In this document: in pieces, positions 12,409-64,000 of the stretch
Numbering within the stretch: position 1 is the first letter of the stretch
Layout of the letters: each line of letters starts with the position of its first letter
NCBI RefSeq assembly: GCF_963921235.1
Contig: NC_086108.1
Span: forward strand, 56,174,001-56,238,000
Direction: 5' to 3'
DNA: 64,000 bases
DNA from: Mobula hypostoma
Lineage: Eukaryota
Notes under the pieces: generated by a model
What the model saw: only the letters and a program-made list of their open reading frames with translations
Told to the model about the DNA's origin: nothing
Databases searched by the model: none
Position numbers and translations under genes: made by a program

Positions 12409-12679
12409 GTAATTCTCAAGGTCATTGTCTTCTTCCAAGAAGAGAAATGTACATAGGATCAAGGAGTAGCATAGCAATGACGAAGCCTATTCAGACCTCT
12501 TTCAAGAGGCTGCTGTAGTCCCTCTCACACACGGCCATTCTAGTAATTCTGCTGGGATTGTACCCATCTGATTTCCCAGGATCAGGGAGAAATTCCTTAA
12601 CTTTTCTGGCAATGCTGTTGCCCACATTATTCGAAAAGCTGTTTCAAGTTACATGAAGAAATAACTCCCTTTCAACAAC

Positions 12680-13538
12680 TCAATTTGCCTCCTACCCACT
12701 CTCCTCTTGCCACAGGGATCACTCCCTCTGTGATTCCCTTGTTCATTCACCTCTCCCCACTAATCTTCCTCCTGACACTTATCCTTACAAGCTGAAGAAA
12801 TGTTTCATTGCCCATTCACCTCCTCCCTCACCTCCATTCAGAGCCCCAAATAGTCCCTCTAGGTGAGACAAGACCTCACTTGTGAATCTATTGGGGTCGT
12901 CTACTGTATCTGGTGCTCCCTATGCGGCCTCCTCTACATTGGCAAGTCCTGATGTAGAATGGAGCACCGCTTCAAGAGGGATTTCCCAGTGGCCAATTAT
13001 TTCAGTTCCAATCCCCATTCCCATTCCGACATGTTGGTCCATGGCCTCCTCTTTTGTCATGATGACACTACTGTCAGATTGGAAGAGCAACACCTTATAT
13101 TCCATCTGGATAGTCTCTAACCTGATGGTATGAACAGCAATTTCTCCAAGTTCCAGTAATTTTCCCCTCCCCCTTCCCTCTTCTTCAACTCTGCCCTCTG
13201 GGCCCCCTACCCACTTCTCCTCACCTGTCTATCACCTCCCCATGGTGCCCCTCCTCATTCCCTTTTTCCATGGTCCAATTCCCTCTCCAATCAGATTCCT
13301 TCTACTCCAGTTCTTTACCTTTTCCACCTATCACCTCCCAGCTTCTTACCTCCCCCCCAGCTTTACCTATCACTTTCAAGCTTGTACTCCCTCCCATCGC
13401 CCATCTTTCTTATTCTGGCATCTTCCCTCTTCATTTGTGGTCCTGATGAAGGGTCTCGGCCCAAATCATCGACTGTTTATTCATTTCCATAGTTGCAGCC
13501 TGACCTGCTGAGTTCCTCCAACATTTTGTGTGTGCCGC
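12680..13538 (+). mobile_element. Penelope-like element fragment: GIY-YIG endonuclease remnant, pyrimidine-rich spacer and terminal repeat
   Basis: Manual translation gives HRDHSLCDSLVHS and, after frameshifts, LTCESIGVVYCIWCSLCGLLYIG, a GIY-YIG signature preceded by a Cys motif typical of PLEs. The tail carries a hammerhead-like CTGATGA. Confidence 0.8.
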
Positions 13539-14004
13539 TTTCAGAGGTTTCACTATAAGCAGCATCTCCTGCCTACACTTGAGCCACAACTTTGAATATG
13601 TGAGAGCTTTCTGGATTCATCCTGGAGTCTCCAATAACCTACAGAGATACTGGCTCTGATAACTTGGGGAGTAATTCTACCCTGGCAGAAAAGACACCAT
13701 TTTTTTCCAGTTGGTGACTACTGAAAAGTTATCAGAGCAGCTGCTATAGAAGATCACAGGGAACTGGAGAGGTTACCTGTCCCTTGGCATTCAGGGTCAA
13801 CATCTGCCACAAAAGGTCTGCATCACAGGGAATTAAACATAAACCTTGGTACAAAATCCATGAGTCATTGACTATAAGTGCATTGCTTCGCTACACCTTT
13901 CAAGGCAGCTAAATGCTGGAGTACCCAAGGAAAGTAATTATTAAGCAGGATTATTCTGGCAGCTGGCTGGTGTGTCCATTGGGAATAACTGGTGAGCTGC
14001 AGTA

Positions 14005-14155
14005 CACACAGGCTGTGTCAAGACCCTTCATCAGGATCCTTCATTCTTCACCAGTCTCTACCCAAACAACTGATGCTGCCAAACGTGCTGACTTCCTCCC
14101 ACATTTTGTGTGTGTGTTGCTTAAGATCTCCAGCATTTGCAGAACCTCGTGTGAT
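14005..14155. mobile_element. Collapsed Penelope-like terminal repeat remnant containing both orientations
   Basis: 14021-14036 (agacccttcatcagga) is the exact reverse complement of 13441-13456. 14070-14120 matches 13490-13535 in direct orientation. Confidence 0.6.
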
Positions 14156-14451
14156 GCCTTGTGTACATCAGCATGCTCAGGGCCTCCAAGCCTGTGTGGT
14201 GTAGCATTGGAGGTCAGGCAGCAGTGTCTCTGGCCCTTTGTACTGCCACTGGGTTCATTAATGTGTCCAGGATACACTGAACTGAGGAGGCTGGAAATGC
14301 TCTCTAGCCTGTGCATCCAGTGCAGCCTCTTCACTTGAATCAGCAGGCCATTCTTCACTTAAAAAGGTGAGAGGATTGTTTCATTTGCTTTATTTTTTGT
14401 TGACCTACATGTATTAATATAGTGTTAAATATACATAATGTTCAGTTAATT

Positions 14452-15768
14452 TTAGACCATAAGACACAGGAGCAAAATTCGGTCATTTGGCCCATCGAGT
14501 CTGCTCCGCCATTTTATCATGGCTGATTAATCCCTCACAACGGCATTCTCTTGTCTTCTCCCCATACCCTTTGATGCACTGACTAATCAAGAAGCTACCA
14601 ACCTCTACTTGAAATATACTCAATGATTTGCCCTGCACAGATATCCATGGCAATGAATTCTACGGATCCACTACGGTCTGGCTAAGAAATTCCTCTTCAT
14701 CTCCGTTCTGAATGGACATTCCTCTATTCTGAGGCTGTGCTGCCTGGACCTAGAATTACCCAATACATGAAACATCCTCTCCATATCCACTTTATCTAGG
14801 TCTTTCAATATTAAATTGGTTTCAATAAAATCCCTCCTCATTCTTCTAAGCTCCAGTGAGTACAGGCCCACAGCCATCAAATGTTTTTCATAAGTTAACC
14901 TTTTCATTCCTGGGATCATTCTCGTGGACCTCCTCTCCAATGCCAGCACATCTTTAATTAGATAATGCGTCCAGAACTGCTCACAATACTCCGTGTGGTC
15001 TGACCAATGTCTTATAAAGCCTCAGCATTACATCCTTGCTCCTACATTCTAGTCTTCTCAAAATGAATGCTAACATTATATTTGGCTTCCTCAACACCGA
15101 CTCAGCATTCAAGTTAACCTTTATGGAATTCTGCACAAGGACTCTCAAGTCCGTTTGCACCTCTGATTTTTGAATTTTCTCCCCATTTAGAAAATAGTCG
15201 ATGCCTTTGTCCCTTCTGCCGAAGTGCATGACCATACACTTCGCTACACTATATTCCATCTGCCACTTCTTTGCCCATTCTCCTCATCTGTCTAAGTCCT
15301 TCAGCAAACTCTGCTCAACGCTACCTGGTCTTTCACCTATCTTCATATCATCCACAAACTCGTCCACAAAGCCATCAATTCCATCATCCATATCATTGAA
15401 ATATAACGTGAAAAGAACTGGTCCCAATACCAACACCTGCAGAACACCACTAGTCACCGGCAGCCAACTGGAATAGGCTTCCTTTATTCCCACTCATTGC
15501 CTCCTGCCAGTCAGCCCATCATCCATCCTTGCTAGTACCTTTCCAGTAATACCATGATCTCTTATCTTGTTAAACATCCTTATTTGTGGCATCTTGATCT
15601 TCTGAAAATCCAACTAAACTACATCCACTGACTCTCCTTTGTCTATCGTGCCTGTTATTCCCTCAAAGAATTCCAACAGATTTGTCAGGAAAGATTTCCG
15701 CTTAAGGAAATCATTCAGACTTTGGCCTACTTTATCATGTGCCTCCAAGTACACCAAAACCTCATCCA
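14452..15768 (-). mobile_element. 5'-truncated CR1 LINE with a longer RT region
   Basis: Minus ORFs LTNLLEFFEGIT, SSWLPVTSGVLQVLVLGPVLFTLYFND...FVDDMKIG, KCMVMHFGR, LRLYKTLVRPH and RQHSLRIEECPFRTEMKRNF. Confidence 0.92.
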
Positions 15769-16695: not shown

Positions 16696-19600
16696 CATCA
16701 CCACAGGCAGCACAGACCCTCCACAGGGACTGTCCTATATCATCAGCACTGGCAGCAGAGACATCCCTGTATCATCATCTCTCCACAGAAACTGTCCTTT
16801 ATCACCACCATTCCACAGAGACAGTCCTATATCATCACTACTCCACAGACACTGTCCTGTATCATCACTACTCCTCAGGCACTGTCCTATATGATCACTA
16901 CTCCACTGAGACTGTCCTATATCATCACTACTCCACTGAGACTGTCCTATATTATCACCACTCCACAGAGACTGTCCTATATCATCACCGCTCCACAGAT
17001 ACGGTCCTATATCATCACCGCTCCACAGAGACTGTCCTATATCATCACCACTCCACAGAAACTGTCCGATATCATCACTACTCCACAGAGACTGTCCTAT
17101 ATCATCACTACTCCAGAGACTGTCCTATATCATCACTACTCCACTGAGACAGTCCTATATCATCACCACTCCACAGAGACTGTCCTAAATCATCACCACT
17201 CCACCGAGACTGCCCCATATCATCACCACTCCACAGTGACTGTTCGATATCATCACTACTCCACGGAGACTGTCCGATATCATCACAACTCCACAGAGAC
17301 TGTCCTAAATCATCACCACTGAACCGAGACTGTCCTATATCATCACTACTCCACAGAGACTGTTGTACATCCTCACCACTCCACCGAGACTATCCTAAAT
17401 TATCACCACTCCACAGAGACTGTTGTACATCCTCACCACTCCACAGAGACTGTCCGATATCACCACTCCACAGAGACTGTCCGATATCACCACTCCACCG
17501 AGACTGTTCTATATCATCACCACTCCACAAAGACTGTCCTATATCATCAACACAGAGATGGTTCTATGTCATCAACACAGAGACGGTCCTAAATCACCAC
17601 CACTCTGTAGAGACTGTCCTACATCACCACCACTCCACAGAGACTGTCCGATATCATCACTACTCCACAGAGACTTTCCTATATCATCACCACTCCACAG
17701 AGACTGACCGATGTCATCACCACTCCACAGAGACTATCCTATATCATCACCACTCCACAGAGACTGTCCGATATCATCACCACTCCACCGAGACTGTCCA
17801 ATATCATCACCACTGCACAGAGACTGTCCTATATCATCAGCACTCCACAGAGACTGTCCGATATCATCACCTCCACAGAGACTGTCCTATATCATCACCA
17901 CTCCATTGAGACTGTCCTAAATCATCACCACTCCACAGAGACTGTCCGATATCATCACAACTCCACAGAAACTGTACTACATCATCTTCACCACTCCACA
18001 CAGACTGTCGTACATCATCACTCCACCGAGACTGTCCTATATCATCACCCACCCACAGAGACTGTGCGATATCATCACCCACCCACAGAGACTGTTGTAC
18101 ATCCTCACAACTCCACCGAGACAATCCTAAATTATCACCACTCCACAGAGACTGTTGTACATCCTCACTACTCCACCGAGACTGTCCAAAATTCTGACCA
18201 CTCCGCAGAGACTGTTCTATATCATCACCACTCCACAAAGACCGTCATATATCATCAACACTCCACGGAGACTTTCCTATATCATCACCACTCCACTGAG
18301 ACTGTCCTAAATCATCACCACTCCTCAGAGACTGTCCTATATCATCACCACTCCTCAGAGACTGTCCGTTACCATCACCACTCCACAGAGACTGTCCTAT
18401 ATCATCACTGCTCCAGAGACTGACCTATATCATCACTACTCCACTGAGACGATCCTATCTCATCACCACTTCACAGAGCCTGTCCTATATCATCACCACT
18501 CCACAGAGACTGTCCTAAATCATCACCACTCCACCGAGACTGCCCCATATAATCACCACTCCACAGTGACTGTTCGATATCATCACTACTCCACTGAGAC
18601 GGTCCTATGTCATCACCACTCCACAGAGATTGTCCTATATCATCACCACTTCATAGAAACTGTCCTAAATCATCATCACCACTCCACAGAGACTGTCCGA
18701 TATCACCACTCCACAGAGACTGTCCTAAATCATCACCACTGCACCGAGACTGTCGTATATCACCACCACTCCACAGAGACTGTTGTACATCCTCACCACT
18801 CCTCCGAGACTATCCTAAATTATCACCACTCCACAGAGACTGTTGTACATCCTCAACACTCCACCGAGACTGTCCTAAATTTTCACCACTCCACAGAGAC
18901 TGTCCTAAATCATCACCACTCCACAGAGACTGTTGTACGTCCTCACTACTCCACCGTGACTGTCCTAAATTATCACCAGTCCGCAGAGAAGGTTCTATAT
19001 CATCACCACTCCACAAAGACTTTCCTATATCATCAACACAGAGACAGGTCCTAAATCATCACCACTCCACAGAGAATGTCCTAAATCATCACCACTCTAC
19101 AGAGACTGTCCTATATCACCACCACTCCACAGAAACTGTCCTATATTATGAACACTCCACCGAGACTGTGCGATATCATCACCCACCCACAGAGACTGTG
19201 CGATATCATCACCCACCCACAGAGACTGTTGTACATCCTCACAACTCCACCGAGACAATCCTAAATTATCACCAATCCACAGAGACTGTTGTACATCCTC
19301 ACTACTCCACCGAGACTGTCCAAAATTCTGACCACTCCGCAGAGACTGTTCTATATCATCACCACTCCACAAAGACCGTCATATATCATCAACACTCCAC
19401 GGAGACTTTCCTATATCATCACCACTCCACTGAGACTGTCCGAAATCATCACCACTCCTCAGAGACTGTCCTATATCATCACCACTCCACTGAGACTGTC
19501 CTATATCATCACCACTCCACAGAAACTGTCCTATATTATGAACACTCCACCGAGACTGTCCTATATCATCACCCACCCACAGAGACTGTGCGATATCATC

Positions 19601-22600
19601 ACCCACCCACAGAGACTGTTGTACATCCTCACAACTCCACCGAGACAATCCTAAATTATCACCACTCCACAGAGACTGTTGTACATCCTCACTACTCCAC
19701 CGAGACTGTCCAAAATTATGACCACTCCGCAGAGACTGTTCTATATCATCACCACTCCACAAAGACCGTCATATATCATCAACACTCCACGGAGACTTTC
19801 CTATATCATCACCACTCCACTGAGACTGTCCTAAATCATCACCACTCCTCAGAGACTGTCCTATATCATCACCACTCCTCAGAGACTGTCCGTTACCATC
19901 ACCACTCCACAGAGACTGTCCTATATCATCACTGCTCCAGAGACTGACCTATATCATCACTACTCCACTGAGACGATCCTATCTCATCACCACTTCACAG
20001 AGCCTGTCCTATATCATCACCACTCCACAGAGACTGTCCTAAATCATCACCACTCCACCGAGACTGCCCCATATAATCACCACTCCACAGTGACTGTTCG
20101 ATATCATCACTACTCCACTGAGACGGTCCTATGTCATCCCACTCCACAGAGATTGTCCTATATCATCACCACTTCATAGAAACTGTCCTAAATCATCATC
20201 ACCACTCCACAGAGACTGTCCGATATCATCACCACTCCACAGAGATTATCCTATATCATCACCACTCTGTAGACTGTCCTACATCACCACCACTCCATAG
20301 AGACTGTCCGATATCATCACCACTCCACAGACACTTTCCTATATCATCACCACTCCACAGAGACTGCCCCATATAGTCACCACTCCACAGACTGTCCTAT
20401 ATCATCACCGCTCCACAGAGACTGTCCTATATATTTACCACTCCACTGAGACTGTCCTAAATCATCACCACTCCTCAGAGACTGTCCTATATCATCACCA
20501 CTCCACAGACACTGTCCGATATTATCACAACTCCACTGAGACTGTAATATGTCATCACCACTTACACAGTGACTGTCCTAAATCATCTTCACCACTCCAC
20601 TAAGACTGTCCTATATAATCACCACTCCACAGGAACTGTCCTATATCATCACCACTCCACAGAGACTGTCCTAAATCATCTTCACCACTCTACAGAGACG
20701 GTCATACATCATCACTCCACTGAGACTGTCCTATATCATCACCACTGCACCGAGACTGTCGTATATCACCACCACTCCACAGAGACTGTCTGATATCATC
20801 ACCTCCACAGAGACTGTCCTATATCATCACCACTCCACAGAGACTGTCCTATATCATCACCGCTCCACAGATACGGTCCTATATCATCACCGCTCCACAG
20901 AGACTGTCCTATATCATCACCACTCCACAGAAACTGTCCGATATCATCACTACTCCACAGAGACTGTCCTATATCATCACTACTCCAGAGACTGTCCTAT
21001 ATCATCACTACTCCACTGAGACAGTCCTATATCATCACCACTCCACAGAGACTGTCCTAAATCATCACCACTCCACCGAGACTGCCCCATATCATCACCA
21101 CTCCACAGTGACTGTTCGATATCATCACTACTCCACGGAGACTGTCCGATATCATCACAACTCCACAGAGACTGTCCTAAATCATCACCACTGAACCGAG
21201 ACTGTCCTATATCATCACTACTCCACAGAGACTGTTGTACATCCTCGCCACTCCACCGAGACTATCCTAAATTATCACCACTCCACAGAGACTGTTGTAC
21301 ATCCTCACCACTCCACAGAGACTGTCCGATATCACCACTCCACAGAGACTGTCCGATATCACCACTCCACCGAGACTGTTCTATATCATCACCACTCCAC
21401 AAAGACTGTCCTATATCATCAACACAGAGATGGTTCTATGTCATCAACACAGAGACGGTCCTAAATCACCACCACTCTGTAGAGACTGTCCTACATCACC
21501 ACCACTCCACAGAGACTGTCCGATATCATCACTACTCCACAGAGACTTTCCTATATCATCACCACTCCACAGAGACTGACCAATGTCATCACCACTCCAC
21601 AGAGACTATCCTATATCATCACCACTCCACAGAGACTGTCCAATATCATCACCACTGCACAGAGACTTTCCTATATCATCAGCACTCCACAGAGACTGTC
21701 CGATATCATCACCTCCACAGAGACTGTCCTATATCATCACCACTCCATTGAGACTGTCCTAAATCATCACCACTCCACAGAGACTGTCCGATATCATCAC
21801 AACTCCACAGAAACTGTACTACATCATCTTCACCACTCCACACAGACTGTCGTACATCATCACTCCACCGAGACTGTCCTATATCATCACCCACCCACAG
21901 AGACTGTGCGATATCATCACCCACCCACAGAGACTGTTGTACATCCTCACAACTCCACCGAGACAATCCTAAATTATCACCACTCCACAGAGACTGTTGT
22001 ACATCCTCACTACTCCACCGAGACTGTCCAAAATTCTGACCACTCCGCAGAGACTGTTCTATATCATCACCACTCCACAAAGACCGTCATATATCATCAA
22101 CACTCCACGGAGACTTTCCTATATCATCACCACTCCACTGAGACTGTCCTAAATCATCACCACTCCTCAGAGACTGTCCTATATCATCACCACTCCACTG
22201 AGACTGTCCTATATCATCACCACTCCACAGAAACTGTCCTATATTATGAACACTCCACCGAGACTGACCTATATCATCACTACTCCACTGAGACGATCCT
22301 ATCTCATCACCACTTCACAGAGCCTGTCCTATATCATCACCACTCCACAGAGACTGTCCTAAATCATCACCACTCCACCGAGACTGCCCCATATAATCAC
22401 CACTCCACAGTGACTGTTCGATATCATCACTACTCCACTGAGACGGTCCTATGTCATCACCACTCCACAGAGATTGTCCTATATCATCACCACTTCATAG
22501 AAACTGTCCTAAATCATCATCACCACTCCACAGAGACTGTCCGATATCACCACTCCACAGAGACTGTCCTAAATCATCACCACTGCACCGAGACTGTCGT

Positions 22601-25600
22601 ATATCACCACCACTCCACAGAGACTGTTGTACATCCTCACCACTCCTCCGAGACTATCCTAAATTATCACCACTCCACAGAGACTGTTGTACATCCTCAA
22701 CACTCCACCGAGACTGTCCTAAATTTTCACCACTCCACAGAGACTGTCCTAAATCATCACCACTCCACAGAGACTGTTGTACGTCCTCACTACTCCACCG
22801 TGACTGTCCTAAATTATCACCAGTCCGCAGAGAAGGTTCTATATCATCACCACTCCACAAAGACTTTCCTATATCATCAACACAGAGACAGGTCCTAAAT
22901 CATCACCACTCCACAGAGAATGTCCTAAATCATCACCACTCCACAGAAACTGTCCTATATTATGAACACTCCACCGAGACTGTCCTATATCATCACCCAC
23001 CCACAGAGACTGTGCGATATCATCACCCACCCACAGAGACTGTTGTACATCCTCACAACTCCACCGAGACAATCCTAAATTATCACCACTCCACAGAGAC
23101 TGTTGTACATCCTCACTACTCCACCGAGACTGTCCAAAATTATGACCACTCCGCAGAGACTGTTCTATATCATCACCACTCCACAAAGACCGTCATATAT
23201 CATCAACACTCCACGGAGACTTTCCTATATCATCACCACTCCACTGAGACTGTCCGAAATCATCACCACTCCTCAGAGACTGTCCTATATCATCACCACT
23301 CCACTGAGACTGTCCTATATCATCACCACTCCACAGAAACTGTCCTATATTATGAACACTCCACCGAGACTGTCCTATATCATCACCCACCCACAGAGAC
23401 TGTGCGATATCATCACCCACCCACAGAGACTGTGCGATATCATCACCCACCCACAGAGACTGTTGTACATCCTCACAACTCCACCGAGACAATCCTAAAT
23501 TATCACCACTCCACAGAGACTGTTGTACATCCTCACTACTCCACCGAGACTGTCCAAAATTCTGACCACTCCGCAGAGACTGTTCTATATCATCACCACT
23601 CCACAAAGACCGTCATATATCATCAACACTCCACGGAGACTTTCCTATATCATCACCACTCCACTGAGACTGTCCTAAATCATCACCACTCCTCAGAGAC
23701 TGTCCTATATCATCACCACTCCACTGAGACTGTCCTATATCATCACCACTCCACAGAAACTGTCCTATATTATGAACACTCCACCGAGACTGTCCTATAT
23801 CATCACCCACCCACAGAGACTGTGCGATATCATCACCCACCCACAGAGACTGTTGTACATCCTCACAACTCCACCGAGACAATCCTAAATTATCACCACT
23901 CCACAGAGACTGTTGTACATCCTCACTACTCCACCGAGACTGTCCAAAATTATGACCACTCCGCAGAGACTGTTCTATATCATCACCACTCCACAAAGAC
24001 CGTCATATATCATCAACACTCCACGGAGACTTTCCTATATCATCACCACTCCACTGAGACTGTCCTAAATCATCACCACTCCTCAGAGACTGTCCTATAT
24101 CATCACCACTCCTCAGAGACTGTCCGTTACCATCACCACTCCACAGAGACTGTCCTATATCATCACTGCTCCAGAGACTGACCTATATCATCACTACTCC
24201 ACTGAGACGATCCTATCTCATCACCACTTCACAGAGCCTGTCCTATATCATCACCACTCCACAGAGACTGTCCTAAATCATCACCACTCCACCGAGACTG
24301 CCCCATATAATCACCACTCCACAGTGACTGTTCGATATCATCACTACTCCACTGAGACGGTCCTATGTCATCCCACTCCACAGAGATTGTCCTATATCAT
24401 CACCACTTCATAGAAACTGTCCTAAATCATCATCACCACTCCACAGAGACTGTCCGATATCATCACCACTCCACAGAGATTATCCTATATCATCACCACT
24501 CTGTAGACTGTCCTACATCACCACCACTCCATAGAGACTGTCCGATATCATCACCACTCCACAGACACTTTCCTATATCATCACCACTCCACAGAGACTG
24601 CCCCATATAGTCACCACTCCACAGACTGTCCTATATCATCACCGCTCCACAGAGACTGTCCTATATATTTACCACTCCACTGAGACTGTCCTAAATCATC
24701 ACCACTCCTCAGAGACTGTCCTATATCATCACCACTCCACAGACACTGTCCGATATTATCACAACTCCACTGAGACTGTAATATGTCATCACCACTTACA
24801 CAGTGACTGTCCTAAATCATCTTCACCACTCCACTAAGACTGTCCTATATAATCACCACTCCACAGGAACTGTCCTATATCATCACCACTCCACAGAGAC
24901 TGTCCTAAATCATCTTCACCACTCTACAGAGACGGTCATACATCATCACTCCACTGAGACTGTCCTATATCATCACCACTGCACCGAGACTGTCGTATAT
25001 CACCACCACTCCACAGAGACTGTCTGATATCATCACCTCCACAGAGACTGTCCTATATCATCACCACTCCACAGAGACTATCCTATATCATCACCACTCT
25101 GTAGAGACTATCCAATATCATCACCACTCCACAGAGACTGTCCTAAATCATCTTCACCACTCCACACAGACGGTCGTACATCATCACTCCACCGAGACTG
25201 TCCTATATCATCACCACTGGACCGAGACTGTCGTATATCACCACCACTCCACAGAGACTGTTGAACTTCCTCACCACTCCACCGAGACTGTCCTAAATTA
25301 TCACCACTCCACAGAGACTGTTGTACATCCTCACTACTCCACCGAGACTGTCCTAAATTTTCACCACTCCACAGAGACTGTCCTAAATCATCACCACTCC
25401 ACAGAGACTGTTGTACGTCCTCACTACTCCACCGTGACTGTCCTAAATTATCACCAGTCCGCAGAGAAGGTTCTATATCATCACCACTCCACAAAGACTT
25501 TCCTATATCATCAACACAGAGACGGTCCTAAATCATCACCACTCCACAGAGACTGTCCTGTATTATTACCACTCCACAGAGACTGTCCTAAATCATCACC

Positions 25601-49600: not shown

Positions 49601-52600
49601 ATATCATCACCACTCCATAGAGACTGTCCTAAATAATCATCACCACTCCACTGAGACTGTCCTATATCATCACCACTCCACAGAAACTGTCCTATATTAT
49701 GAACACTCCACAGAGACTGTCCTATATCATCACCACTCCACAGAGACTGTTGTACATCCTCACTACACCACCGAGACTGTCCTAAATTATCACCACTCCA
49801 CAAAGACTGTTCTATATCATCACCACTCCACTGAGACTGTCCTATATCATCACCACTCCACAGAAACTGCCCTATATTATGAACACTCCACAGAGACTGT
49901 CCTATATCATCACCACTCCACAGAGACTGTCCTATATCATCACCACTCCACAGAGACTGTTGTACGTCCTCTCTACTCCACCGAGACTGTTCTAAATTAT
50001 CACCACACCGCAGAGAATGTTCTATATCATCACCACTCCACAGACACTGTCCGATATCATCACCTCCACAGAGACTGTCCTAAATTATCACCACTCCACA
50101 GAGACTGTTGTACATCCTCACTACTCCACCGAGACTGTCCTAAATTATCACCACTCCACAGAGACTGTTGTACATCCTCACCACTCCACCGAGACTGTCC
50201 TAAATTATCACCACTCCACAGAGACTGTTGTACATCCTCACTACTCCACCGAGACTTTCCTATATCATCAACACAGAGACGGTCCTATATCATTAACACA
50301 GAGGCGGTCCTAAATCATCACCACTCCACAGAAACTGTCCTATATCTTTACCACCCCACAGAGACTGTCCTAAATCATCACCACTCTACAGAGACTGTCC
50401 TATATCACCACCACTCCACAGAGATTATCCTATATCATCACCACTCTGTAGACTGTCCTACATCACCACCACTCCATAGAGACTGTCCGATATCATCACC
50501 ACTCCACAGACACTTTCTTATATCATCACCACTCCACAGAGACTGCCCCATATAGTCACCACTCCACAGTGACTGTTCGATATCATCACTACTCCACTGA
50601 GACAGTCCTATATCATCACCACTCCACAGGGACTGTCCTATATCATCACCACTCCATAGAGACTGTCCTAAATCATAATCACCACTCCACAGCGACTGTC
50701 CGATATCATCACCACTCCACAGAGACTGTCCTAAATCATCACCACTGCACCGAGACTGTCGTATATCACCACCAACCCACAGAATGTTGTACATCCTCAC
50801 CACTCCTCCGAGACTATCCTAAATTATCACCACTCCACAGAGACTGTTGTACATCCTCACTTCTCCACTGAGACTATCCTAAATTATCACCACTCCACAG
50901 AGACTGTTCTATATCATCACCACTCCACTGAGACTGTCCTATATCATCACCACTCCACAGAAACTGTCCTAAATCATCACCAATCCACAGAGACTGTTGT
51001 ACATCCTCACTACTCCACCAAGACTGTCCTAAATTATCAGCACTCCACAGAGACTGTTCTACATCCTCACTACTCCACCGAGACTGTCCCAAATTATCAC
51101 GACTCCACAAAGACTGTTCTATATCATCACCACTCCACTGAGACTGCCCTCTATCATCACCACTCCACAGAGACTGTCCTATATCATCACCACTGCACAG
51201 AGACTGTCCTATATCATCACCACTCCATAGAGACTGTACTAAATCATCATCACCACTCCACAGCGACTGTCCGATATCATCACCACTCCACAGAGACTGT
51301 CCTACATCATCTTCACCACTCCACACAGACGGTCGTACATCATCACTCCACTGAGACTGTCATATTTCATCACCAACTCACAGAGACTGTTGTACATCCT
51401 CACCACTCCACCGAGACTATCCTAACTTATCACCACTCCACAGAGACTGTTGTACATCCTCACTACTCCACCGAGACTGTCCTAAATTATCGTCACTCCA
51501 CAGAGTCTGTTCTATATTATTACCACTCCACAGAGAATGTCCTAAATCACCACCACTCCACAGAGACTGTCCGATATCATCACTACTCCACAGAGACTTT
51601 CCTATATCATCACCACTCCATTGAGACTGTCCTAAATCATCACCACTCCACAGAGACTGTCCGATATCATCACAACTCCACAGAAACTGTACTACATCAT
51701 CTTCACCACTCCACACAGACTGTCGTACATCATCACTCCACAGAGACTGTTCTATATCATCACCACTCCACAAAGACCATCCTATATCATCAACACAGAG
51801 ATGGTCCTAAATCATCACCACTCCTCAGAGACTGTCCTATATCATCACCACTCTGTAGAGACTGTCCTATATCATTACCACTCCACAGAGGATGTCCGAT
51901 ATCATCATCACTCCACAGAGACTGTCCTATATTATCACTACTCCACAGGGACTGTCCGATATCATCACCTCCACAGAGACTGTCGTATATCATCACCACT
52001 CCACTGAGACTATCCTAACTTATCACCACTCCACAGAGACTGTTGTACATCCTCACTACTCCACCGAGACTGTCCTAAATTATGACCACTCCATAGAGAC
52101 TGTTCTATATCATCACCACTCCACAAAGACCATCCTATATCATCAACACAGAGATGGTCCTAAATCATCACCACTCCACAGAGACTGTCCTATATTATTA
52201 CCACTCCACAGAGACTGTCCTAAGTCATCACCACTCTACAGAGACTGTCCTATATCACCAGCACTCCACTGAGACTGTCCTAAATCATCACCACTCCTCA
52301 GAAACTGTCCTATATCATCACCACTCTGTAGAGACTGTCCTATATCATTACTACTCCACAGAGAATGTCCAATATCATCTTCACTCCACAGAGACTGTCC
52401 TATATTATCACTACTCCACAGGGACTGTCCAATATCATCACCTCCACAGAGACTGTCGTATATCATCACCACTCCACTGAGACTGTCCTAAATCATCACC
52501 ACTCCACTGAGACTGTCCTATATCATCACCACTCCACAGAGACTTTCCTATATCATCACCACTCCACTGAGACTGTCCTATATTATCACCGCTCCACTGA

Positions 52601-55600
52601 GACTGTCCTAAATCATCACCGCTCCTCAGAGACTATCCTATATCATCACCACTCAACAGAGACTATCCTATATCATCACCACTCCACAGACACTGTCCGA
52701 TATTATCATTACTCCACTGAGACTGTCCTATATCATCACCACTCCACAGAGACTGCCCTAAATCATCACCACTCCACCGAGACTGCCCCATATAATCACC
52801 ACTCCACAGTGACTGTTCGATATCATCATTACTCCACTGAGACAGTCCTATATCATCACCACTCCACAGAGACTATCCTATATCATCACCACTCCACAGA
52901 GACTGTCCTATACGATCACCACTCCATAGAGACTGTCCTAAATCATCATCACCACTCCACAGCGACTGTCCGATATCATCACCACTCCACAGAGACTGTC
53001 CTAAATCATCACCACTCCACAGAGACTGTTGAACTTCCTCACCACTCCACCGGGACTGTCCTAAATTATCACCACTCCACAGAGACTGTTGTACATCCTC
53101 ACTACTCCACCGAGACTGTCCTAAATTATCACCACTCCACAGAGACTGTTCTATATCATCACCACTCCACTGAGACTGTCCTCTGTCATCAGCACTCCAC
53201 AGAGACTGTCCTACATCATCTTCACAACTCCACACAGACGGTCGTACATCATCACTCCACCGAGACTGTCATATATCATCACCAACCCACAGAGACGGTT
53301 GTACATCCTCACCGCTCCACCGAGACTATCCTAAATTATCACCACTCCACAGAGACTGTTCTATATCATCACCACTCCACAAAGACCATCCTATATCATC
53401 AACACAGAGACGGTCCTAAATCATCACCACTCCACAGAGACTGTCCTATATTATTACCACTCCACAGAGACTGTCCTAAATTAGCACCACTCTACAGAGA
53501 CTGTTGTACATCCTCACTACTCCACCGAGACTGTCCTAAATTATCACCACTCCACAGAGACTGTTCTATATTATTACCACTCCACAGAGACTGTCGTATA
53601 TCACCACCAACCCACAAAGACTGTTGTACATCCTCACCACTCCACCGAGACTGTCCTAAATTATCACCACTCCACAGAGACTGTTGTACATCCTCACTAC
53701 TCCACCGAGACTGTCGTATATCACCACCAACCCACAACGACTGTTGTACATCCTCACCACTCCACCGAGACTGTCCTAAATTATCACCACTCCACAGAGA
53801 CTGTTCTATGTCATCACCACTCCACAAAAATTGTCCTTTATCATCAACACGGTGACGGTCCTAAATCATCACCACTCCACAGAGACTGTCCGATATCATC
53901 ACCACTCCACAGAGACTGTCCTATATCATCACCACTCCACAGAGACTGTCCTAAATCATTTTCACCACTCTACAGAGACGGTCATACATCATCACTCCAC
54001 TGAGACTGTCCTATATCATCACCACTGCACCGAGACTGTCGTATGTCACCACCACTCCACAGACACTGTTGAACTTCCTCACCACTCCGCCGAGACTGTC
54101 CTAAATTATCACCACTCCACAGAGACTGTTGTGCATCCTCACTACTCCACCGAGACTGTCCTAAATTATCACCACTCCACAGAGACTGTTGTACATCCTC
54201 ACTACTCCACCGAGACTGTCCTAAATAATCACCACTCCACAGAGACTGTTCTATATCACCACCACTCCACAGAGACTGTTGAACATCCTCACTACTCCAC
54301 CGAGACTGTCCTAAATTATCGTCACTCCACAGAGAATGTCCTAAATCATCACCACTCTACCGAGACTGTCCTATATCACCACCACTCCACAGAGATTATC
54401 CTACATCATCACCACTCTGTAGAGACTGTCCAATATCATCACCACTCCACAGAGACTGTCCTATATCATCAGCACTCCACAGAGACTGTCCAATATCATC
54501 ACTACTCCACTGAGACGGTCTAATATCATCACTACTCCACTGAGACTGCCCTATATCATCACCACTCCTCAGAGACTGTCCTAAATCATCACCACTCCAC
54601 AGAGACAGTCCTATATCATCACCGCTCCACAGAAACTGTCCTATATCATCTCCACTCCACTGAGACTGTCCTATATCATCACCACTCCTCAGAGACTGTC
54701 CTATATCATCACCACTCAACAGAGACTATCCTATATCATCACCACTCCGCAGACACTGTCTGATATTATCACCACTCCACTGAGACTGTACTACGTCATC
54801 ACCACTTACGCAGTGACTGTCCTAAATGAAATTCACCACTCCACTAAGACTGTCCTGTATCATCACCACTCCACAGCAACTGTCCGATATCATCACCACT
54901 CCACAGAGACTGTCCTAAATCATTTTCACCACTCTACAGGGACGGTCATACATCATCACTCCACTGAGACTGTCCTATATCATCACCACTGCACCGAGAC
55001 TGTCGTATATCACCACCACTCCACAGAGACTGTTGAACTTACTCACCACTCCGCCGAGACTGTCCTAAATTATCACCACTCCACAGAGACTGTTGTGCAT
55101 CCTCGCTACTCCACGAGACTGTCCTAAATTATCACCACTCCACAGAGACTGTTGTACATCCTCACCACTCCACCGAGACTGTCCTAAATCATCACCACTC
55201 CTCAAAGACTGTCCTATATCATCACCACTCCACAGTGACTGTCCGATATCATCACTACTCCACTGACACTGTCCTATATCATCACTATTCCACTGAGACT
55301 GTCCTATATCATCACTACTCCACTGAGACGGACTAATATGATCACTACTGTACAGAGAATGCCCTATATCAGCACCACTCCTCAGAGACTGTCCTAAATC
55401 ATCACCACTCCACAGACTGTCCTATATCATCACCGCTCCACAGAGACTGTCCTATATATTTACCACTCCACTGAGACTGTCCTAAATCATCACCACTCCT
55501 CAGAGACTGTCCTATATCATCACCACTCAACAGAGACTATCCTATATCATCACCACTCCGCAGACACTGTCTGATATTATCACCACTCCACTGAGACTGT

Positions 55601-58600
55601 ACTACGTCATCACCACTTACGCAGTGACTGTCCTAAATGAAATTCACCACTCCACTAAGACTGTCCTGTATCATCACCACTCCACAGGAACTGTCCTATA
55701 TCATCACCACTCCACAGAGACTGTCCTAAATCATCTTCACCACTCTACAGAGACGGTCATACATCATCACTCCACTGAGACTGTCCTATATCATCACCAC
55801 TGCATCGAGACTGTCGTATATCACCACCACTCCACAGAGACTGTTGAACTTCCTCACCACTCCGCCGAGACTGTCCTAAATTATCACCACTCCACAGAGA
55901 CTGTTGTGCATCCTCACTACTCCACCGAGACTGTCCTAAATTATCACCACTCCACAGAGACTGTTGTACATCCTCACTACTCCACCGAGACTGTCCTAAA
56001 TAATCACCACTCCACAGAGACTGTTCTATATCACCACCACTCCACAGAGACTGTTGAACTTCCTCACTACTCCACCGAGACTGTCCTAAATTATCACCAC
56101 TCCACAGAGACTGTTGTACATCCTCACTACTCCACCAAGACTGTCCTAAATTATCGTCACTCCACAGAGTCTGTTCTATATTATTACCACTCCACAGAGA
56201 ATGTCCTAAATCATCACCACTCTACAGAGACTGTCCTATATCACCACCACTCCACAGAGATTATCCTACATCATCACCACTCTGTAGAGACTGTCCAATA
56301 TCATCACCACTCCACAAAGACTGTCCAATATCATCACCACTCCACAGAGACTGTCCTATATCATCAGCACTCCACAGAGACTGTCCAATATCATCACTAC
56401 TCCACTGAGACGGTCTAATATCATCACTACTCCACTGAGACTGCCCTATATCATCACCACTCCTCAGAGACTGTCCTAAATCATCACCACTCCACAGAGA
56501 CAGTCCTATATCATCACCGCTCCACAGAAACTGTCCTATATCATCTCCACTCCACTGAGACTGTCCTATATCATCACCACTCCTCAGAGACTGTCCTATA
56601 TCATCACCACTCAACAGAGACTATCCTATATCATCACCACTCCACAGAGACAGTCCTATATCATCACCGCTCCACAGAAACTGTCCTATATCATCTCCAC
56701 TCCACTGAGACTGTCCTATATCATCACCACTCCTCAGAGACTGTCCTATATCATCACCACTCAACAGAGACTATCCTATATCATCACCACTCCACAGACA
56801 CTGTCTGATATTATCACCACTCCACTGAGACTGTACTACGTCATCACCACTTACGCAGTGACTGTCCTAAATGAAATTCACCACTCCACTAAGACTGTCC
56901 TATATCATCACCACTCCACAGCAACTGTCCGATATCATCACCACTCCACAGAGACTGTCCTAAATCATCTTCACCACTCTACAGGGACGGTCATACATCA
57001 TCACTCCACTGAGACTGTCCTATATCATCACCACTGCACCAAGACTGTCGTATATCACCACCACTCCACAGAGACTGTTGAACTTCCTCACCACTCCTCC
57101 GAGACTATCCTAAATTATCACCACTCCACAGAGACTGTTGTACATCCTCACTTCTCCACCGAGACGGTCCTAAATTATCACCACTCCACAAAGACTGTTG
57201 TACATCCTCACTACTCCACGAGACTGTCCTAAATTATCACCACTCCACAGATACTGTTCTATATCACCACCACTCCACAGAGACTGTTGTACATCCTCAC
57301 CACTCCTCCGAGACTGTCCTAAATTATCACCACTCCACAGAGACTGTTGTACATCCTCACTACTCCACCGAGACTGTCCTAAATTATCATCACTCCACAG
57401 AGACTGTCCTATATTATTACCACTCCACAGAGACCGTCTTATATCACCACCAACCCACAACGACTGTTGTACATCCTCACCACTCCACCGAGACTATCCT
57501 AAATTATCACCACTCCACAGAGACTGTTCTATATCATCACAACTCCAGCAAAATTGTCCTATATCATCAACACAGAGACGGTCCTAAATCATCACCACTC
57601 CACAGAGACTGTCCGATATCATCACCACTCCACAGAGACTTTCCTATATCATCACTACTCCACTGAGACTGTCCTATATCATCACTACTCCACTGAGGCG
57701 GTCTAATATCATCACTACTCCACTGAGACTGCCCTATACCATCACCACTCCTTCAGAGACTGTGCTATATCATCACCGCTCCACAGAGACTGTCCTATAT
57801 CATCACCACTCCACTGAGACTGTCCTAAATCATCACCACTGCTCAGAGACTGTCCTATATCATCACCACTCAACAGAGACTATCCTATATCATCACCACT
57901 TACACAGTGACTGTCCTAAATCATCTTCACCACTCTACAGAGACGGTCATACATCATCACTCCACTGAGACTGTCCTATATCATCACCACTGCACCGAGA
58001 CTGTCGTATATCACCACCACTCCACAGAGACTGTTCAACTTCCTCACCACTCCGCCGAGACTGTCCTAAATTATCACCACTCCACAGAGACTGTTGTGCA
58101 TCCTCACTACTCCACTGAGACTGTCCTAAATTATCACCACTCCACAAAGACTGTTGTACATCCTCACTACTCCACCGAGACGGTCCTAAATTATCACCAC
58201 TCCACAGAGACTGTTGTGCATCCTCACTACTCCACCGAGACTGTCCTAAATTATCACCACTCCACAGAGACTGTTGTACATCCTCACTACTCCACCGAGA
58301 CTGTCCTAAATAATCACCACTCCACAGAGACTGTTCTATATCACCACCACTCCACAGAGACTGTTGAACTTCCTCACTACTCCACCGAGACTGTCCTAAA
58401 TTATCGTCACTCCACAGAGTCTGTTCTATATTATTACCACTCCACAGAGAATGTCCTAAATCATCACCACTCTACAGAGACTGTCCTATATCACCACCAC
58501 TCCACAGAGATTATCCTACATCATCACCACTCTGTAGAGACTGTCCAATATCATCACCACTCCACAAAGACTGTCCAATATCATCACCACTCCACAGAGA

Positions 58601-61600
58601 CTGTCCTATATCATCAGCACTCCACAGAGACTGTCCAATATCATCACTACTCCACTGAGACGGTCTAATATCATCACTACTCCACTGAGACTGCCCTATA
58701 TCATCACCACTCCTCAGAGACTGTCCTAAATCATCACCACTCCACAGAGACAGTCCTATATCATCACCGCTCCACAGAAACTGTCCTATATCATCTCCAC
58801 TCCACTGAGACTGTCCTATATCATCACCACTCCTCAGAGACTGTCCTATATCATCACCACTCAACAGAGACTATCCTATATCATCACCACTCCACAGAGA
58901 CAGTCCTATATCATCACCGCTCCACAGAAACTGTCCTATATCATCTCCACTCCACTGAGACTGTCCTATATCATCACCACTCCTCAGAGACTGTCCTATA
59001 TCATCACCACTCAACAGAGACTATCCTATATCATCACCACTCCACAGACACTGTCTGATATTATCACCACTCCACTGAGACTGTACTACGTCATCACCAC
59101 TTACGCAGTGACTGTCCTAAATGAAATTCACCACTCCACTAAGACTGTCCTATATCATCACCACTCCACAGCAACTGTCCGATATCATCACCACTCCACA
59201 GAGACTGTCCTAAATCATCTTCACCACTCTACAGGGACGGTCATACATCATCACTCCACTGAGACTGTCCTATATCATCACCACTGCACCAAGACTGTCG
59301 TATATCACCACCACTTCACAGAGACTGTTGAACTTCCTCACCACTCCTCCGAGACTATCCTAAATTATCACCACTCCACAGAGACTGTTGTACATCCTCA
59401 CTTCTCCACCGAGACGGTCCTAAATTATCACCACTCCACAAAGACTGTTGTACATCCTCACTACTCCACGAGACTGTCCTAAATTATCACCACTCCACAG
59501 ATACTGTTCTATATCACCACCACTCCACAGAGACTGTTGTACATCCTCACCACTCCTCCGAGACTGTCCTAAATTATCACCACTCCACAGAGACTGTTGT
59601 ACATCCTCACTACTCCACCGAGACTGTCCTAAATTATCATCACTCCACAGAGACTGTCCTATATTATTACCACTCCACAGAGACCGTCTTATATCACCAC
59701 CAACCCACAACGACTGTTGTACATCCTCACCACTCCACCGAGACTATCCTAAATTATCACCACTCCACAGAGACTGTTCTATATCATCACAACTCCAGCA
59801 AAATTGTCCTATATCATCAACACAGAGACGGTCCTAAATCATCACCACTCCACAGAGACTGTCCGATATCATCACCACTCCACAGAGACTTTCCTATATC
59901 ATCACTACTCCACTGAGACTGTCCTATATCATCACTACTCCACTGAGGCGGTCTAATATCATCACTACTCCACTGAGACTGCCCTATACCATCACCACTC
60001 CTTCAGAGACTGTGCTATATCATCACCGCTCCACAGAGACTGTCCTATATCATCACCACTCCACTGAGACTGTCCTAAATCATCACCACTGCTCAGAGAC
60101 TGTCCTATATCATCACCACTCAACAGAGACTATCCTATATCATCACCACTTACACAGTGACTGTCCTAAATCATCTTCACCACTCTACAGAGACGGTCAT
60201 ACATCATCACTCCACTGAGACTGTCCTATATCATCACCACTGCACCGAGACTGTCGTATATCACCACCACTCCACAGAGACTGTTCAACTTCCTCACCAC
60301 TCCGCCGAGACTGTCCTAAATTATCACCACTCCACAGAGACTGTTGTGCATCCTCACTACTCCACTGAGACTGTCCTAAATTATCACCACTCCACAAAGA
60401 CTGTTGTACATCCTCACTACTCCACCGAGACGGTCCTAAATTATCACCACTCCACAGAGACTGTTGTGCATCCTCACTACTCCACCGAGACTGTCCTAAA
60501 TTATCACCACTCCACAGAGACTGTTCTATATCACCACCACTCCACAGAGACTGTTGAACTTCCTCACTACTCCACCGAGACTGTCCTAAATTATCGTCAC
60601 TCCACAGAGTCTGTTCTATATTATTACCACTCCACAGAGAATGTCCTAAATCATCACCACTCTACAGAGACTGTCCTATATCACCACCACTCCACAGAGA
60701 TTATCCTACATCATCACCACTCTGTAGAGACTGTCCAATATCATCACCACTCCACAAAGACTGTCCAATATCATCACCACTCCACAGAGACTGTCCTATA
60801 TCATCAGCACTCCACAGAGACTGTCCAATATCATCACTACTCCACTGAGACGGTCTAATATCATCACTACTCCACTGAGACTGCCCTATATCATCACCAC
60901 TCCTCAGAGACTGTCCTAAATCATCACCACTCCACAGAGACAGTCCTATATCATCACCGCTCCACAGAAACTGTCCTATATCATCTCCACTCCACTGAGA
61001 CTGTCCTATATCATCACCACTCCTCAGAGACTGTCCTATATCATCACCACTCAACAGAGACTATCCTATATCATCACCACTCCACAGAGACAGTCCTATA
61101 TCATCACCGCTCCACAGAAACTGTCCTATATCATCTCCACTCCACTGAGACTGTCCTATATCATCACCACTCCTCAGAGACTGTCCTATATCATCACCAC
61201 TCAACAGAGACTATCCTATATCATCACCACTCCACAGACACTGTCTGATATTATCACCACTCCACTGAGACTGTACTACGTCATCACCACTTACGCAGTG
61301 ACTGTCCTAAATGAAATTCACCACTCCACTAAGACTGTCCTATATCATCACCACTCCACAGCAACTGTCCGATATCATCACCACTCCACAGAGACTGTCC
61401 TAAATCATCTTCACCACTCTACAGGGACGGTCATACATCATCACTCCACTGAGACTGTCCTATATCATCACCACTGCACCAAGACTGTCGTATATCACCA
61501 CCACTCCACAGAGACTGTTGAACTTCCTCACCACTCCTCCGAGACTATCCTAAATTATCACCACTCCACAGAGACTGTTGTACATCCTCACTTCTCCACC

Positions 61601-63879
61601 GAGACGGTCCTAAATTATCACCACTCCACAAAGACTGTTGTACATCCTCACTACTCCACGAGACTGTCCTAAATTATCACCACTCCACAGATACTGTTCT
61701 ATATCACCACCACTCCACAGAGACTGTTGTACATCCTCACCACTCCTCCGAGACTGTCCTAAATTATCACCACTCCACAGAGACTGTTGTACATCCTCAC
61801 TACTCCACCGAGACTGTCCTAAATTATCATCACTCCACAGAGACTGTCCTATATTATTACCACTCCACAGAGACTGTCTTATATCACCACCAACCCACAA
61901 CGACTGTTGTACATCCTCACCACTCCACCGAGACTATCCTAAATTATCACCACTCCACAGAGACTGTTCTATATCATCACAACTCCAGCAAAATTGTCCT
62001 ATATCATCAACACAGAGACGGTCCTAAATCATCACCACTCCACAGAGACTGTCCGATATCATCACCACTCCACAGAGACTTTCCTATATCATCACTACTC
62101 CACTGAGACTGTCCTATATCATCACTACTCCACTGAGGCGGTCTAATATCATCACTACTCCACTGAGACTGCCCTATACCATCACCACTCCTTCAGAGAC
62201 TGTGCTATATCATCACCGCTCCACAGAGACTGTCCTATATCATCACCACTCCACTGAGACTGTCCTAAATCATCACCACTGCTCAGAGACTGTCCTATAT
62301 CATCACCACTCAACAGAGACTATCCTATATCATCACCACTTACACAGTGACTGTCCTAAATCATCTTCACCACTCTACAGAGACGGTCATACATCATCAC
62401 TCCACTGAGACTGTCCTATATCATCACCACTGCACCGAGACTGTCGTATATCACCACCACTCCACAGAGACTGTTCAACTTCCTCACCACTCCGCCGAGA
62501 CTGTCCTAAATTATCACCACTCCACAGAGACTGTTGTGCATCCTCACTACTCCACTGAGACTGTCCTAAATTATCACCACTCCACAAAGACTGTTGTACA
62601 TCCTCACTACTCCACGAGATTGTCCTAAATTATCACCACTCCACAGAGACTGTTGTACATCCTCACTACTCCACCGAGACTGTCCTAAATAATCACCACT
62701 CCACAGAGACTGTTCTATATCACCACCACTCCACAGAGACTGTTGAACTTCCTCACCACTCCACCGAGACTGTCCTAAATTATCACCACTCCACAGAGAC
62801 TGTTGTACATCCTCACTACTCCACCGAGACGGTCCTAAATTATCACCACTCCACAGAGACTGTTGTACATCCTCACTACTCCACCAAGACTGTCCTAAAT
62901 TATCGTCACTCCACAGAGTCTGTCCTATATTATTACCACTCCACAGAGACTGTCCTAAATCATCACCACTCTACAGAGACTGTCCTATATCACCACCACT
63001 CCACAGAGATTATCCTACATCATCACCACTCTGTAGAGACTGTCCAATATCATCACCGCTCCACAGAGACTGTCCAATATCATCACCTCTCCACAGAGAC
63101 TGTCCTATATCATCAGCACTCCACAGAGTCTGTCCTATATCATCACTACTCCACTGAGACGGTCTAATGTCATCACTACTCCACTGAGACTGCCCTATAT
63201 CATCACCACTCCTCAGAGACTGTCCTATATCATCACCACTCAACAGAGACTATCCTATATCATCACCACTCCACAGACACTGTCCGATATTATCACCACT
63301 CTACTGAGACTGTACTACGTCATCACCACTTACCAGTGACTGTCCTAAATGATCTTCACCACTCCACTAAGACTGTCCTATATCATCACCACTCCACAGC
63401 AACTGTCCGATATCATCACCACTCCACAGAGACTGTCCTAAATCATCTTCACCACTCTACAGGGACGGTCATACATCATCACTCCACTGAGACTGTCCTA
63501 TATCATCACCACTGCACCGAGACTGTCGTATATCACCACCACTCCACAGAGACTGTTGAACTTCCTCACCACTCCACCGAGACTGTCCTAAATTATCACC
63601 ACTCCACAGAGACTGTTGTACATCCTCACTTCTCCACCGAGACTGTCCTAAATTATCACCACTCCACAGAGACTGTTGTACATCCTCACTTCTCCACCGA
63701 GACTGTCCTAAATCATCACCACTCCACCGAGACTGTCCGATATCATTACTACTCCACTTAGACTGTCCTATATCATCACCAGTCCACCGGGACTGTCCAA
63801 AATCATCACCACTCCACTGAGACTGTACTATATCATCACTACTCCACTGAGACTGTCCTATATCATCACCACTCCACAG
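16696..63879. repeat. ~47 kb tandem satellite/minisatellite array, 30-bp monomer CACCACTCCACAGAGACTGTCCTATATCAT
   Basis: 30-bp periodicity is directly visible throughout. Variants include CTAAAT/CTATAT/CGATAT and GTTGTACATCCTCACTAC, with occasional 24, 27, 28, 29 and 33 bp units. Both junctions with unique sequence lie inside the window. Confidence 0.98.
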
Positions 63880-64000
63880 TTAATGTCCAGTTTCTTTCCA
63901 ACTTAGAAAACTTAGTTTTCGAACATGAGTAAGACCCTGACTATCACATTAGGTCAGGCAAGTACTGCCAGTTAATGGGATCATACAATCAAGCGGGAAA

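What the first reader, a model, noticed from the sequence alone, without database searches (positions are those of the whole stretch)
12409..64000. A 47 kb satellite may sit inside the last intron of SGIP1; terminal exon not found
Seen: the last recognisable exon ends ...KKRFAA-G|gtaatt at 12408, a phase-1 donor. Recalled knowledge: vertebrate SGIP1 ends with a tiny exon encoding about (G)KYLADN-stop. Reading 12409-16700 and 63880-64000 by eye, I found no such exon. Inference: it lies beyond the window, making the final intron longer than 51 kb and about 90% satellite, so Pol II would have to transcribe the whole array in an endocytic gene. Alternatives are a changed C-terminus by read-through (GNSQGHCLL...KRLL*, stop at 12518) or a new acceptor such as tttcag| at 16024 or ttccaacttag| at 63906.
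Basis: partly seen in the sequence, partly recalled or inferred. Interest (0 to 1): 0.7.

Follow-up and report, generated by a model that had tools for sequence, protein, structure and literature searches.

The report
Giant minisatellite in ray SGIP1 intron
About 1,580 head-to-tail copies of a 30-base repeat, found nowhere else in this ray's genome, fill 90% of the 52-kb last intron of an intact SGIP1 gene whose missing final exon lies just past the window's end; the repeat is likely spliced out as a functionless, recently grown passenger, of a kind already known from human genes.

Summary
Confirmed, and resolved as ordinary. The terminal exon lies 492 nt beyond the window (extended coordinate 64492). 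It has a phase-1 acceptor and encodes (G)KYMADN-stop. Contigs from 3 of 3 RNA-type runs, from three organisms and three studies, join the exon ending at 12408 to it. A public SGIP1 protein maps across the same gap. The last intron is 52,083 nt, of which 47,161 nt (90.5%) is a 30-bp array. The array is single-locus: all 883 genome-wide matches are in it. It shows recent 2-6 kb internal duplications. The gene is otherwise normal, with other introns near 39, 23 and 18 kb; the paralogous last introns are 839 and 871 nt. One of 50 sampled 10-kb stretches lay wholly inside another minisatellite. The scan had already found similar intronic arrays on other DNA of this genome (PRKD1, MIDEAS, RTF1; unchecked notes). 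The closest known cases are the human CACNA1C and WDR7 intronic repeats. One speculative lead: the sense strand carries 4,795 NOVA-type YCAY motifs, with no sign that they are selected. Array length in the animals that gave the RNA is unknown.

The parts
3595..3750 (+). SGIP1 coding exon (muHD, about residues 516-566 of P0001)
   Evidence: boundaries read from the AG/GT sites
4341..4473 (+). SGIP1 coding exon (about residues 567-612 of P0001)
6112..6314 (+). SGIP1 coding exon (about residues 613-679 of P0001)
11213..11277 (+). SGIP1 coding exon (about residues 680-701 of P0001)
12244..12408 (+). Penultimate SGIP1 exon, ending ...KKRFAA-G, with a phase-1 GT donor at 12409
   Evidence: matches human SGIP1 muHD 5AWR residues 222-275 of 282, E 6e-26
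12409..64000 (+). Last intron; it continues past the window to extended coordinate 64491 (52,083 nt in all, 4,922 nt without the array). The terminal exon, (G)KYMADN-stop, lies outside the window at extended 64492-64514 (L002:992-1014), behind a pyrimidine tract and CAG, with the 3' UTR following
16719..63879 (.). Single-locus 30-bp minisatellite, about 1,581 copies, one orientation, diverged units at the left edge (from about 16690), internal kb-scale duplications
63880..64000 (+). Single-copy intron sequence after the array; it runs 612 nt to the acceptor outside the window

Best explanation
The 47-kb block is a single-locus 30-bp minisatellite that fills 90% of the 52-kb last intron of an intact SGIP1 gene; it likely grew in place, is likely transcribed and spliced out with the rest of the intron, and likely has no selected function. 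Shown: the exon-intron-exon anatomy, the conserved GKYMADN end, use of this junction in assembled transcripts of this or close species, confinement of the repeat to one locus, and a two-tier structure (units differ from the majority unit at about 3 of 30 bases, while 2-6 kb blocks recur almost unchanged). Inferred: a short seed in a roughly 5-kb intron first multiplied unit by unit and gathered point changes. Unequal crossing-over or replication template switching then duplicated multi-kb blocks recently. Also inferred: the array is tolerated because its sense strand lacks poly(A) signals and canonical splice-site words and ends 612 nt before the acceptor, so the two splice sites are recognised as before. 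The cost would be some extra minutes of transcription.
For: Terminal exon with a strong acceptor at L002:992, the only hit in 263.5 kb. Contigs of 3 of 3 RNA-type runs (X1, X3, X8; three organisms, three studies) begin at L002:988 with loose 5' letters equal to window 12375-12404; the four letters between fit both sides, giving junction 12408 to L002:992. DNA-type run X12 runs through unspliced. P0001, named SGIP1 isoform X4 of a devil ray by its source, maps in 21 exact blocks, the last across a 52,083-nt gap. 102 of the 120 listed homologues end in GKY[LM]ADx. All genome-wide matches lie in this array: 38 of 38, 201 of 201, 883 of 883. The right flank is single-copy. A Tctex-1 family exon lies 49 kb downstream, which fits the human gene order as I recall it. 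Duplicated blocks of 1.7-3.4 kb differ at 0-6 bases. Sense strand has 0 AATAAA/ATTAAA, 0 GT[AG]AG and 0 pyrimidine-tract acceptors. No Rfam match. YCAY cores are no better kept than other positions, 0.883 vs 0.880 among 273 distinct 30-nt units.
Against: The RNA comes from other animals whose array length is unknown, so splicing across a full 47-kb array is inferred, not observed; the runs are labelled RNA only by guess. No long reads were available to confirm the assembled length, and one 6.2-kb stretch has no unique 31-mer. No orthologous intron of another ray could be read, so the age of the array and the ancestral intron size are not measured. Lack of function is argued from absence of evidence. 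It is the only array over 1 kb in 463.5 kb around the gene, so it is locally exceptional. The mutational mechanism was not tested.
Confidence: 0.8

Rival explanations
1. The array is real but acts on gene expression. Its sense RNA is unstructured and dense in YCAY motifs, so it would bind NOVA-type KH-domain proteins or slow transcription, and so tune last-intron splicing, 3' end formation or SGIP1 level in neurons.
For: 4,795 YCAY on the sense strand, 101.7 per kb, against 18.7 per kb in 490 kb of background and 1.9 per kb on the antisense strand. 756 of 200,000 background 30-mers (0.4%) have 4 or more YCAY. A 301-nt piece folds worse than 100 of 100 shuffles, z +2.9. NOVA1 binds YCAY clusters, and a 258-nt intronic repeat with 7 YCAY affects hTERT splicing (PMC6079032, passages). 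Long CACNA1C repeat alleles go with lower expression in some tissues (PMC13131567, abstract). Neuronal enrichment of SGIP1 and NOVA is recalled, from no call.
Against: The motif was chosen after seeing the unit, and the thousands of copies come from one seed, so they are one observation. YCAY cores are not better kept than other positions. The terminal exon is used in all contigs seen. No binding or expression data.
Confidence: 0.1
2. The array is in this intron but its assembled length is wrong, collapsed or inflated through mis-joined near-identical blocks.
For: Blocks of 3.0 kb recur with 0 differences, and a 6.1-kb block recurs with 199 of 205 identical units. The largest stretches without a unique 31-mer are 6.2 and 6.0 kb.
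Against: No N in 463.5 kb. The longest exact repeat is 3,036 nt, which common long reads span (read lengths recalled). 339 distinct units among 1,567 do not look like a collapsed consensus. Exon order is collinear on both sides, and the repeat exists nowhere else to be mis-joined from.
Confidence: 0.07
3. The array has changed the gene's 3' end, so that the main product uses read-through (stop at 12518) or a new acceptor (16024 or 63906).
For: The read-through frame is open for 35 codons after the junction glycine. AG sites exist at both places. 18 of 120 listed homologues end otherwise than GKY[LM]ADx, though these look like gene calls running into the intron (my inference).
Against: An intact conserved terminal exon exists and is joined to the donor in 3 of 3 RNA-type runs, one with no difference from G000 over 912 nt. 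P0001 ends in GKYMADN.
Confidence: 0.03

Closest known systems
Human CACNA1C intronic 30-bp VNTR (TRACT); PMC13131567 (abstract and section 12 read); 10.1101/2025.09.15.676436 (search listing only)
   Same: A 30-bp unit, one intron of a vertebrate gene, a mosaic of unit variants, tens of kb (3-30+ kb in humans).
   Different: Unrelated unit sequence. This array is longer (47 kb) and shows kb-scale block duplications, whereas the paper proposes growth through perfect-repeat tracts. Length polymorphism and expression effects are known for TRACT and untested here.
Human WDR7 last-intron 69-bp VNTR and ABCA7 intronic VNTR; as cited in review PMC11433896 (passages)
   Same: A minisatellite inside an intron, for WDR7 the last intron.
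   Different: Different units. ABCA7 alleles count as expanded above 5.7 kb, far shorter than this array. Disease association is shown there; nothing of the kind is known here.
Intron gigantism of Drosophila Y-linked fertility genes (kl-3, kl-5); PMC6508621, PMC11207136 (search listings only)
   Same: Polymerase II transcribes satellite DNA that makes up most of an intron.
   Different: Those introns reach hundreds of kb to megabases and have a dedicated expression programme. This one is 52 kb, only 1.3 times the gene's next-longest intron mapped with P0001.
Repeat-driven intron elongation in sharks and rays; 10.1101/2025.06.08.657570 (passages)
   Same: Long introns filled with repeats. The paper reports no overt difference in repeat cover between introns and intergenic DNA in a stingray, and many regions dominated by simple tandem repeats.
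   Different: A genome-wide statistic. The passages seen do not describe single-locus giant intronic minisatellites or SGIP1.

Membership tests
SGIP1 (muniscin family, against FCHO1/FCHO2) | C-terminal mu-homology domain closest to SGIP1 | tested here: met
   5AWR SGIP1 E 6e-26 against FCHO1 5JP2 E 1.4e-11; best named homologues are SGIP1 at 96-100%; two other muHD loci on C12 and C73 end RYMADC and KYFAGC
SGIP1 (muniscin family, against FCHO1/FCHO2) | Intact reading frame ending GKY[LM]ADN | tested here: met
   P0001 maps in 21 exact blocks from residue 4 to 762, with residues 72 and 132-135 unmapped by the 6-residue minimum
Intronic minisatellite / VNTR | Head-to-tail unit of about 10-100 bp | tested here: met
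   Period 30, 1581 copies; 1,316 of 1,567 units are 30 nt
Intronic minisatellite / VNTR | Locus-specific and inside a spliced intron | tested here: met
   883 of 883 matches in this array; junction across it
Intronic minisatellite / VNTR | Copy number varies between individuals | not testable with these tools
   One assembly only; no long reads
Centromeric or dispersed satellite family | Present at several loci or in megabase blocks | tested here: not met
   No match outside the array at up to 3 mismatches in 30; 47 kb bounded by genic DNA
Centromeric or dispersed satellite family | Regular higher-order repeat | tested here: inconclusive
   Recurrent offsets near 2.2, 5.5, 11 and 16.6 kb, but irregular and largely absent from 46.7-55.7 kb
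Transposon-derived minisatellite | Unit or both flanks belong to a dispersed element | tested here: not met
   Right flank of 581 nt has 1 match in the genome. For the left-flank query, among 150 listed of 354 matches the only ones outside this locus covered its first 44 bases, a LINE-like end about 190 nt before the array. An old, diverged element is not excluded.
Intron gigantism (Drosophila Y-loop type) | Intron of hundreds of kb to Mb with a dedicated transcription programme | tested here: not met
   52 kb; the programme itself was not tested

The most novel reading that the evidence does not exclude
A ray has turned the last intron of a neuronal endocytosis gene into a 47-kb unstructured RNA carrying about 4,800 NOVA-type YCAY sites. 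Each nascent SGIP1 transcript would act as a length-variable sponge or splicing timer for neuronal KH-domain proteins, a natural and tolerated counterpart of the repeat RNAs that sequester NOVA2 in human ataxia (SCA37).
Probability: 0.07. Interest if true: 0.6.

Novelty: new member of a known kind. Interest (0 to 1): 0.2.

Why it matters
Taken alone it matters little. It shows that a conserved vertebrate gene can carry a tenfold repeat-driven expansion of its last intron, from about 4.9 kb of non-array sequence to 52 kb, with its reading frame and terminal exon intact. It is a clean single-locus example, larger than the human CACNA1C repeat, and could serve for studying how minisatellites move from unit-wise growth to block duplication. 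With the other arrays in this genome it makes one general question testable: whether intronic arrays are filtered by orientation so that the transcribed strand lacks splice and poly(A) words. Here GT[AG]AG occurs 0 times on the sense strand and 185 times on the antisense strand, but one array is one observation.

Tried and rejected
No run is on record as RNA for window 11100-13100; the three used are RNA by guess only. No reads were laid on the donor side, so read-through at 12409-12518 and the 16024 acceptor were not examined with reads. The three RNA-type runs show no cover at L002:385-987, where the 63906 site lies; absence in contigs proves nothing. X12's DNA contig starts two letters before the laid stretch, near the array's end, which says nothing about whether that relative has the array. 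A coding role for the 30-bp unit was rejected: the + frames have stop-free runs up to 579 codons but 266-320 stops each, with frequent 25-33 nt units, many of which shift the frame. A megablast self-comparison of the array gave only short hits and was replaced by unit-level and k-mer analyses. No Rfam family in 12409-64000. No seed of the unit in the surrounding 416 kb by blastn. Literature searches 'SGIP1 + intron + VNTR' and 'SGIP1 + satellite + intron + shark' found 0 papers. 'Intron + tandem repeat + minisatellite + shark + genome' gave 6 unrelated listings. Last-intron length in other sharks and rays could not be compared, because the genome search has no relatives for G000.

Full report
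Observation. The window is G000:C50:56174001-56238000, in a 3.48-Gb genome. TRF finds one array at 16719-63879, period 30, 1,581 copies. All of this is as reported.

Gene identity. The 54 residues of the exon match human SGIP1 muHD (5AWR, residues 222-275 of 282, E 6e-26) far better than FCHO1 (E 1.4e-11), leaving seven residues to find. The genome has three muHD loci, on C50, C12 and C73. A homologue search gave 3,303 hits, of which 120 were listed; the best are SGIP1 proteins of rays and sharks at 96-100% identity. The organism is therefore a ray, likely close to the devil rays.

The missing exon. I fetched 200 kb downstream. A scan of 263.5 kb for a phase-1 acceptor followed by a KY-type peptide gave one hit, at extended coordinate 64492 (L002:992), 492 nt past the window's end. 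It has a pyrimidine tract and CAG and encodes (G)KYMADN-stop. Of the 120 listed homologues, 102 end in GKY[LM]ADx (31 in GKYMADN) and 18 end otherwise. The 13 named cartilaginous-fish proteins I printed all end in GKYMADN. P0001 maps to the region in 21 exact blocks, the last six residues across a gap of 52,083 nt, so a public protein record already implies this intron. A Tctex-1 family exon lies 49 kb further on, which fits the human order SGIP1 then DYNLT5 (recalled).

Transcripts. No run is on record as RNA; eleven were guessed to be RNA. I laid three of them and one DNA-like run on L002:385-2450. In 3 of 3 RNA-type runs (X1, X3, X8; organisms A, B, D; three studies) a contig begins at L002:988 with loose upstream letters identical to window 12375-12404. 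The four letters between fit both sides, so the junction is 12408 to L002:992. X1 has no difference from G000 over 912 nt. X12 covers 385-1420 unspliced. The limit is that these animals' array lengths are unknown and contigs hide rare isoforms. Splicing across the full 47 kb is therefore inferred, and the donor side was not examined with reads.

Intron in context. The intron is 52,083 nt: 47,161 array and 4,922 other. The same phase-1 intron is 839 nt in the C12 paralog and 871 nt in the C73 paralog. Other gaps between P0001 blocks include about 38.8, 23.0 and 17.8 kb, so the gene already carries long introns. At recalled polymerase rates of 1-4 kb per minute the array adds roughly 12-47 minutes.

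The array. All genome-wide matches lie in it: 38 of 38 for an exact 30-mer, 201 of 201 for an 18-mer, and 883 of 883 at up to 3 mismatches, all on one strand. There are 339 distinct units among 1,567; the 1,316 units of 30 nt differ from the majority unit at 3.06 positions on average. On top of this, 18 runs of 25 or more units recur, at offsets near 2.2, 5.5, 11 and 16.6 kb among others; six blocks of 1.7-3.4 kb differ from their copies at 0-6 bases. The stretch 46.7-55.7 kb is rich in private units (20-32 per about 98) and has largely escaped duplication. The left edge fades through diverged units. The right flank is single-copy, and the left shows no dispersed element abutting the array among 150 listed of 354 matches. 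This fits growth in place: older unit-wise expansion, then recent block duplication by unequal exchange or template switching (inferred). The longest exact repeat is 3,036 nt, the longest stretch without a unique 31-mer is 6.2 kb, and there is no N. The assembly is plausible but its length is unverified.

Why it is tolerated (inferred). The sense strand has no AATAAA or ATTAAA, no GT[AG]AG and no pyrimidine-tract acceptor in 47 kb, while the antisense strand has 185 GT[AG]AG. The array ends 612 nt before the acceptor and starts 4.3 kb after the donor. It shows no sign of coding and matches no Rfam family.

How ordinary. It is the only array over 1 kb in 463.5 kb around the gene. Among 50 evenly spaced 10-kb samples (40 on C50, 10 on C12), 1 lay wholly inside another minisatellite and 3 held arrays of 1 kb or more, 12,677 of 500,000 bases. 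That is a small sample from two contigs. Earlier unchecked notes of this scan describe large intronic arrays, up to over 40 kb, in PRKD1, MIDEAS, RTF1, LRRC56 and PLEKHD1 of the same genome; I did not test them. In print, human CACNA1C carries a 30-bp intronic VNTR of 3-30+ kb (PMC13131567, abstract and section 12), and WDR7 a 69-bp VNTR in its last intron (PMC11433896, passages). Shark and ray introns are long and repeat-filled without regional bias (10.1101/2025.06.08.657570, passages). Two searches naming SGIP1 with VNTR or satellite found no paper.

The boldest reading left open. The sense strand holds 4,795 YCAY motifs, 101.7 per kb against 18.7 in background (49 of the 50 samples; the array-filled one was left out). 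Four per unit is reached by 0.4% of background 30-mers and 1.3% of shuffles of the unit, and a 301-nt piece is less structured than all 100 shuffles. NOVA1 binds YCAY clusters and acts on an intronic repeat of hTERT (PMC6079032, passages), and a repeat RNA colocalises with NOVA2 in SCA37 models (10.1101/2025.09.03.673996, abstract). Against this, the motif was picked after the fact, the copies come from one seed, and YCAY cores are no better kept than other positions (0.883 vs 0.880). I give it 0.07.

Verdict. The feature is a large new member of a known kind, a giant single-locus intronic minisatellite in an intact gene. Interest 0.2.

Noticed in passing
window 16719-63879: Strand asymmetry: donor-like words are nearly absent on the transcribed strand (GT[AG]AG 0, GGT[AG] 1) and common on the other (185 and 1,385). 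One array cannot show selection, but all intronic arrays of the genome together could.
   Followed up: partly
window 46719-55718: This part of the array has 20-32 private units per about 98, against 0-4 in 19.7-46.7 kb; it has largely escaped the recent block duplications.
   Followed up: partly
L002:1677, 1918, 4636: Three AATAAA words downstream of the stop codon. RNA-type contigs run past the first two to about 2450, so 4636 is a candidate poly(A) signal and the 3' UTR may be about 3.6 kb and contain LINE-like pieces.
   Followed up: partly
L063:1-9990 (G000:C50:4400001-4410000): An unrelated 32-bp minisatellite fills a whole sampled 10-kb stretch; its full length and gene context were not examined.
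   Followed up: no
L046 (C12, about 159372204-159373066) and L042 (C73, about 25595951-25596845): The two paralogous muHD genes, likely FCHO2 and FCHO1, keep the same phase-1 last intron at 839 and 871 nt and end RYMADC and KYFAGC.
   Followed up: yes
L006, G000:C50:56287353-56287535: Tctex-1 family exon on the + strand 49 kb downstream of the SGIP1 stop, likely DYNLT5/TCTEX1D1.
   Followed up: partly
window 1860-2990 and 16100-16520: Broken reverse-transcriptase (LINE-like) fragments in introns, recognised by eye from the sequence and not classified with a tool.
   Followed up: no
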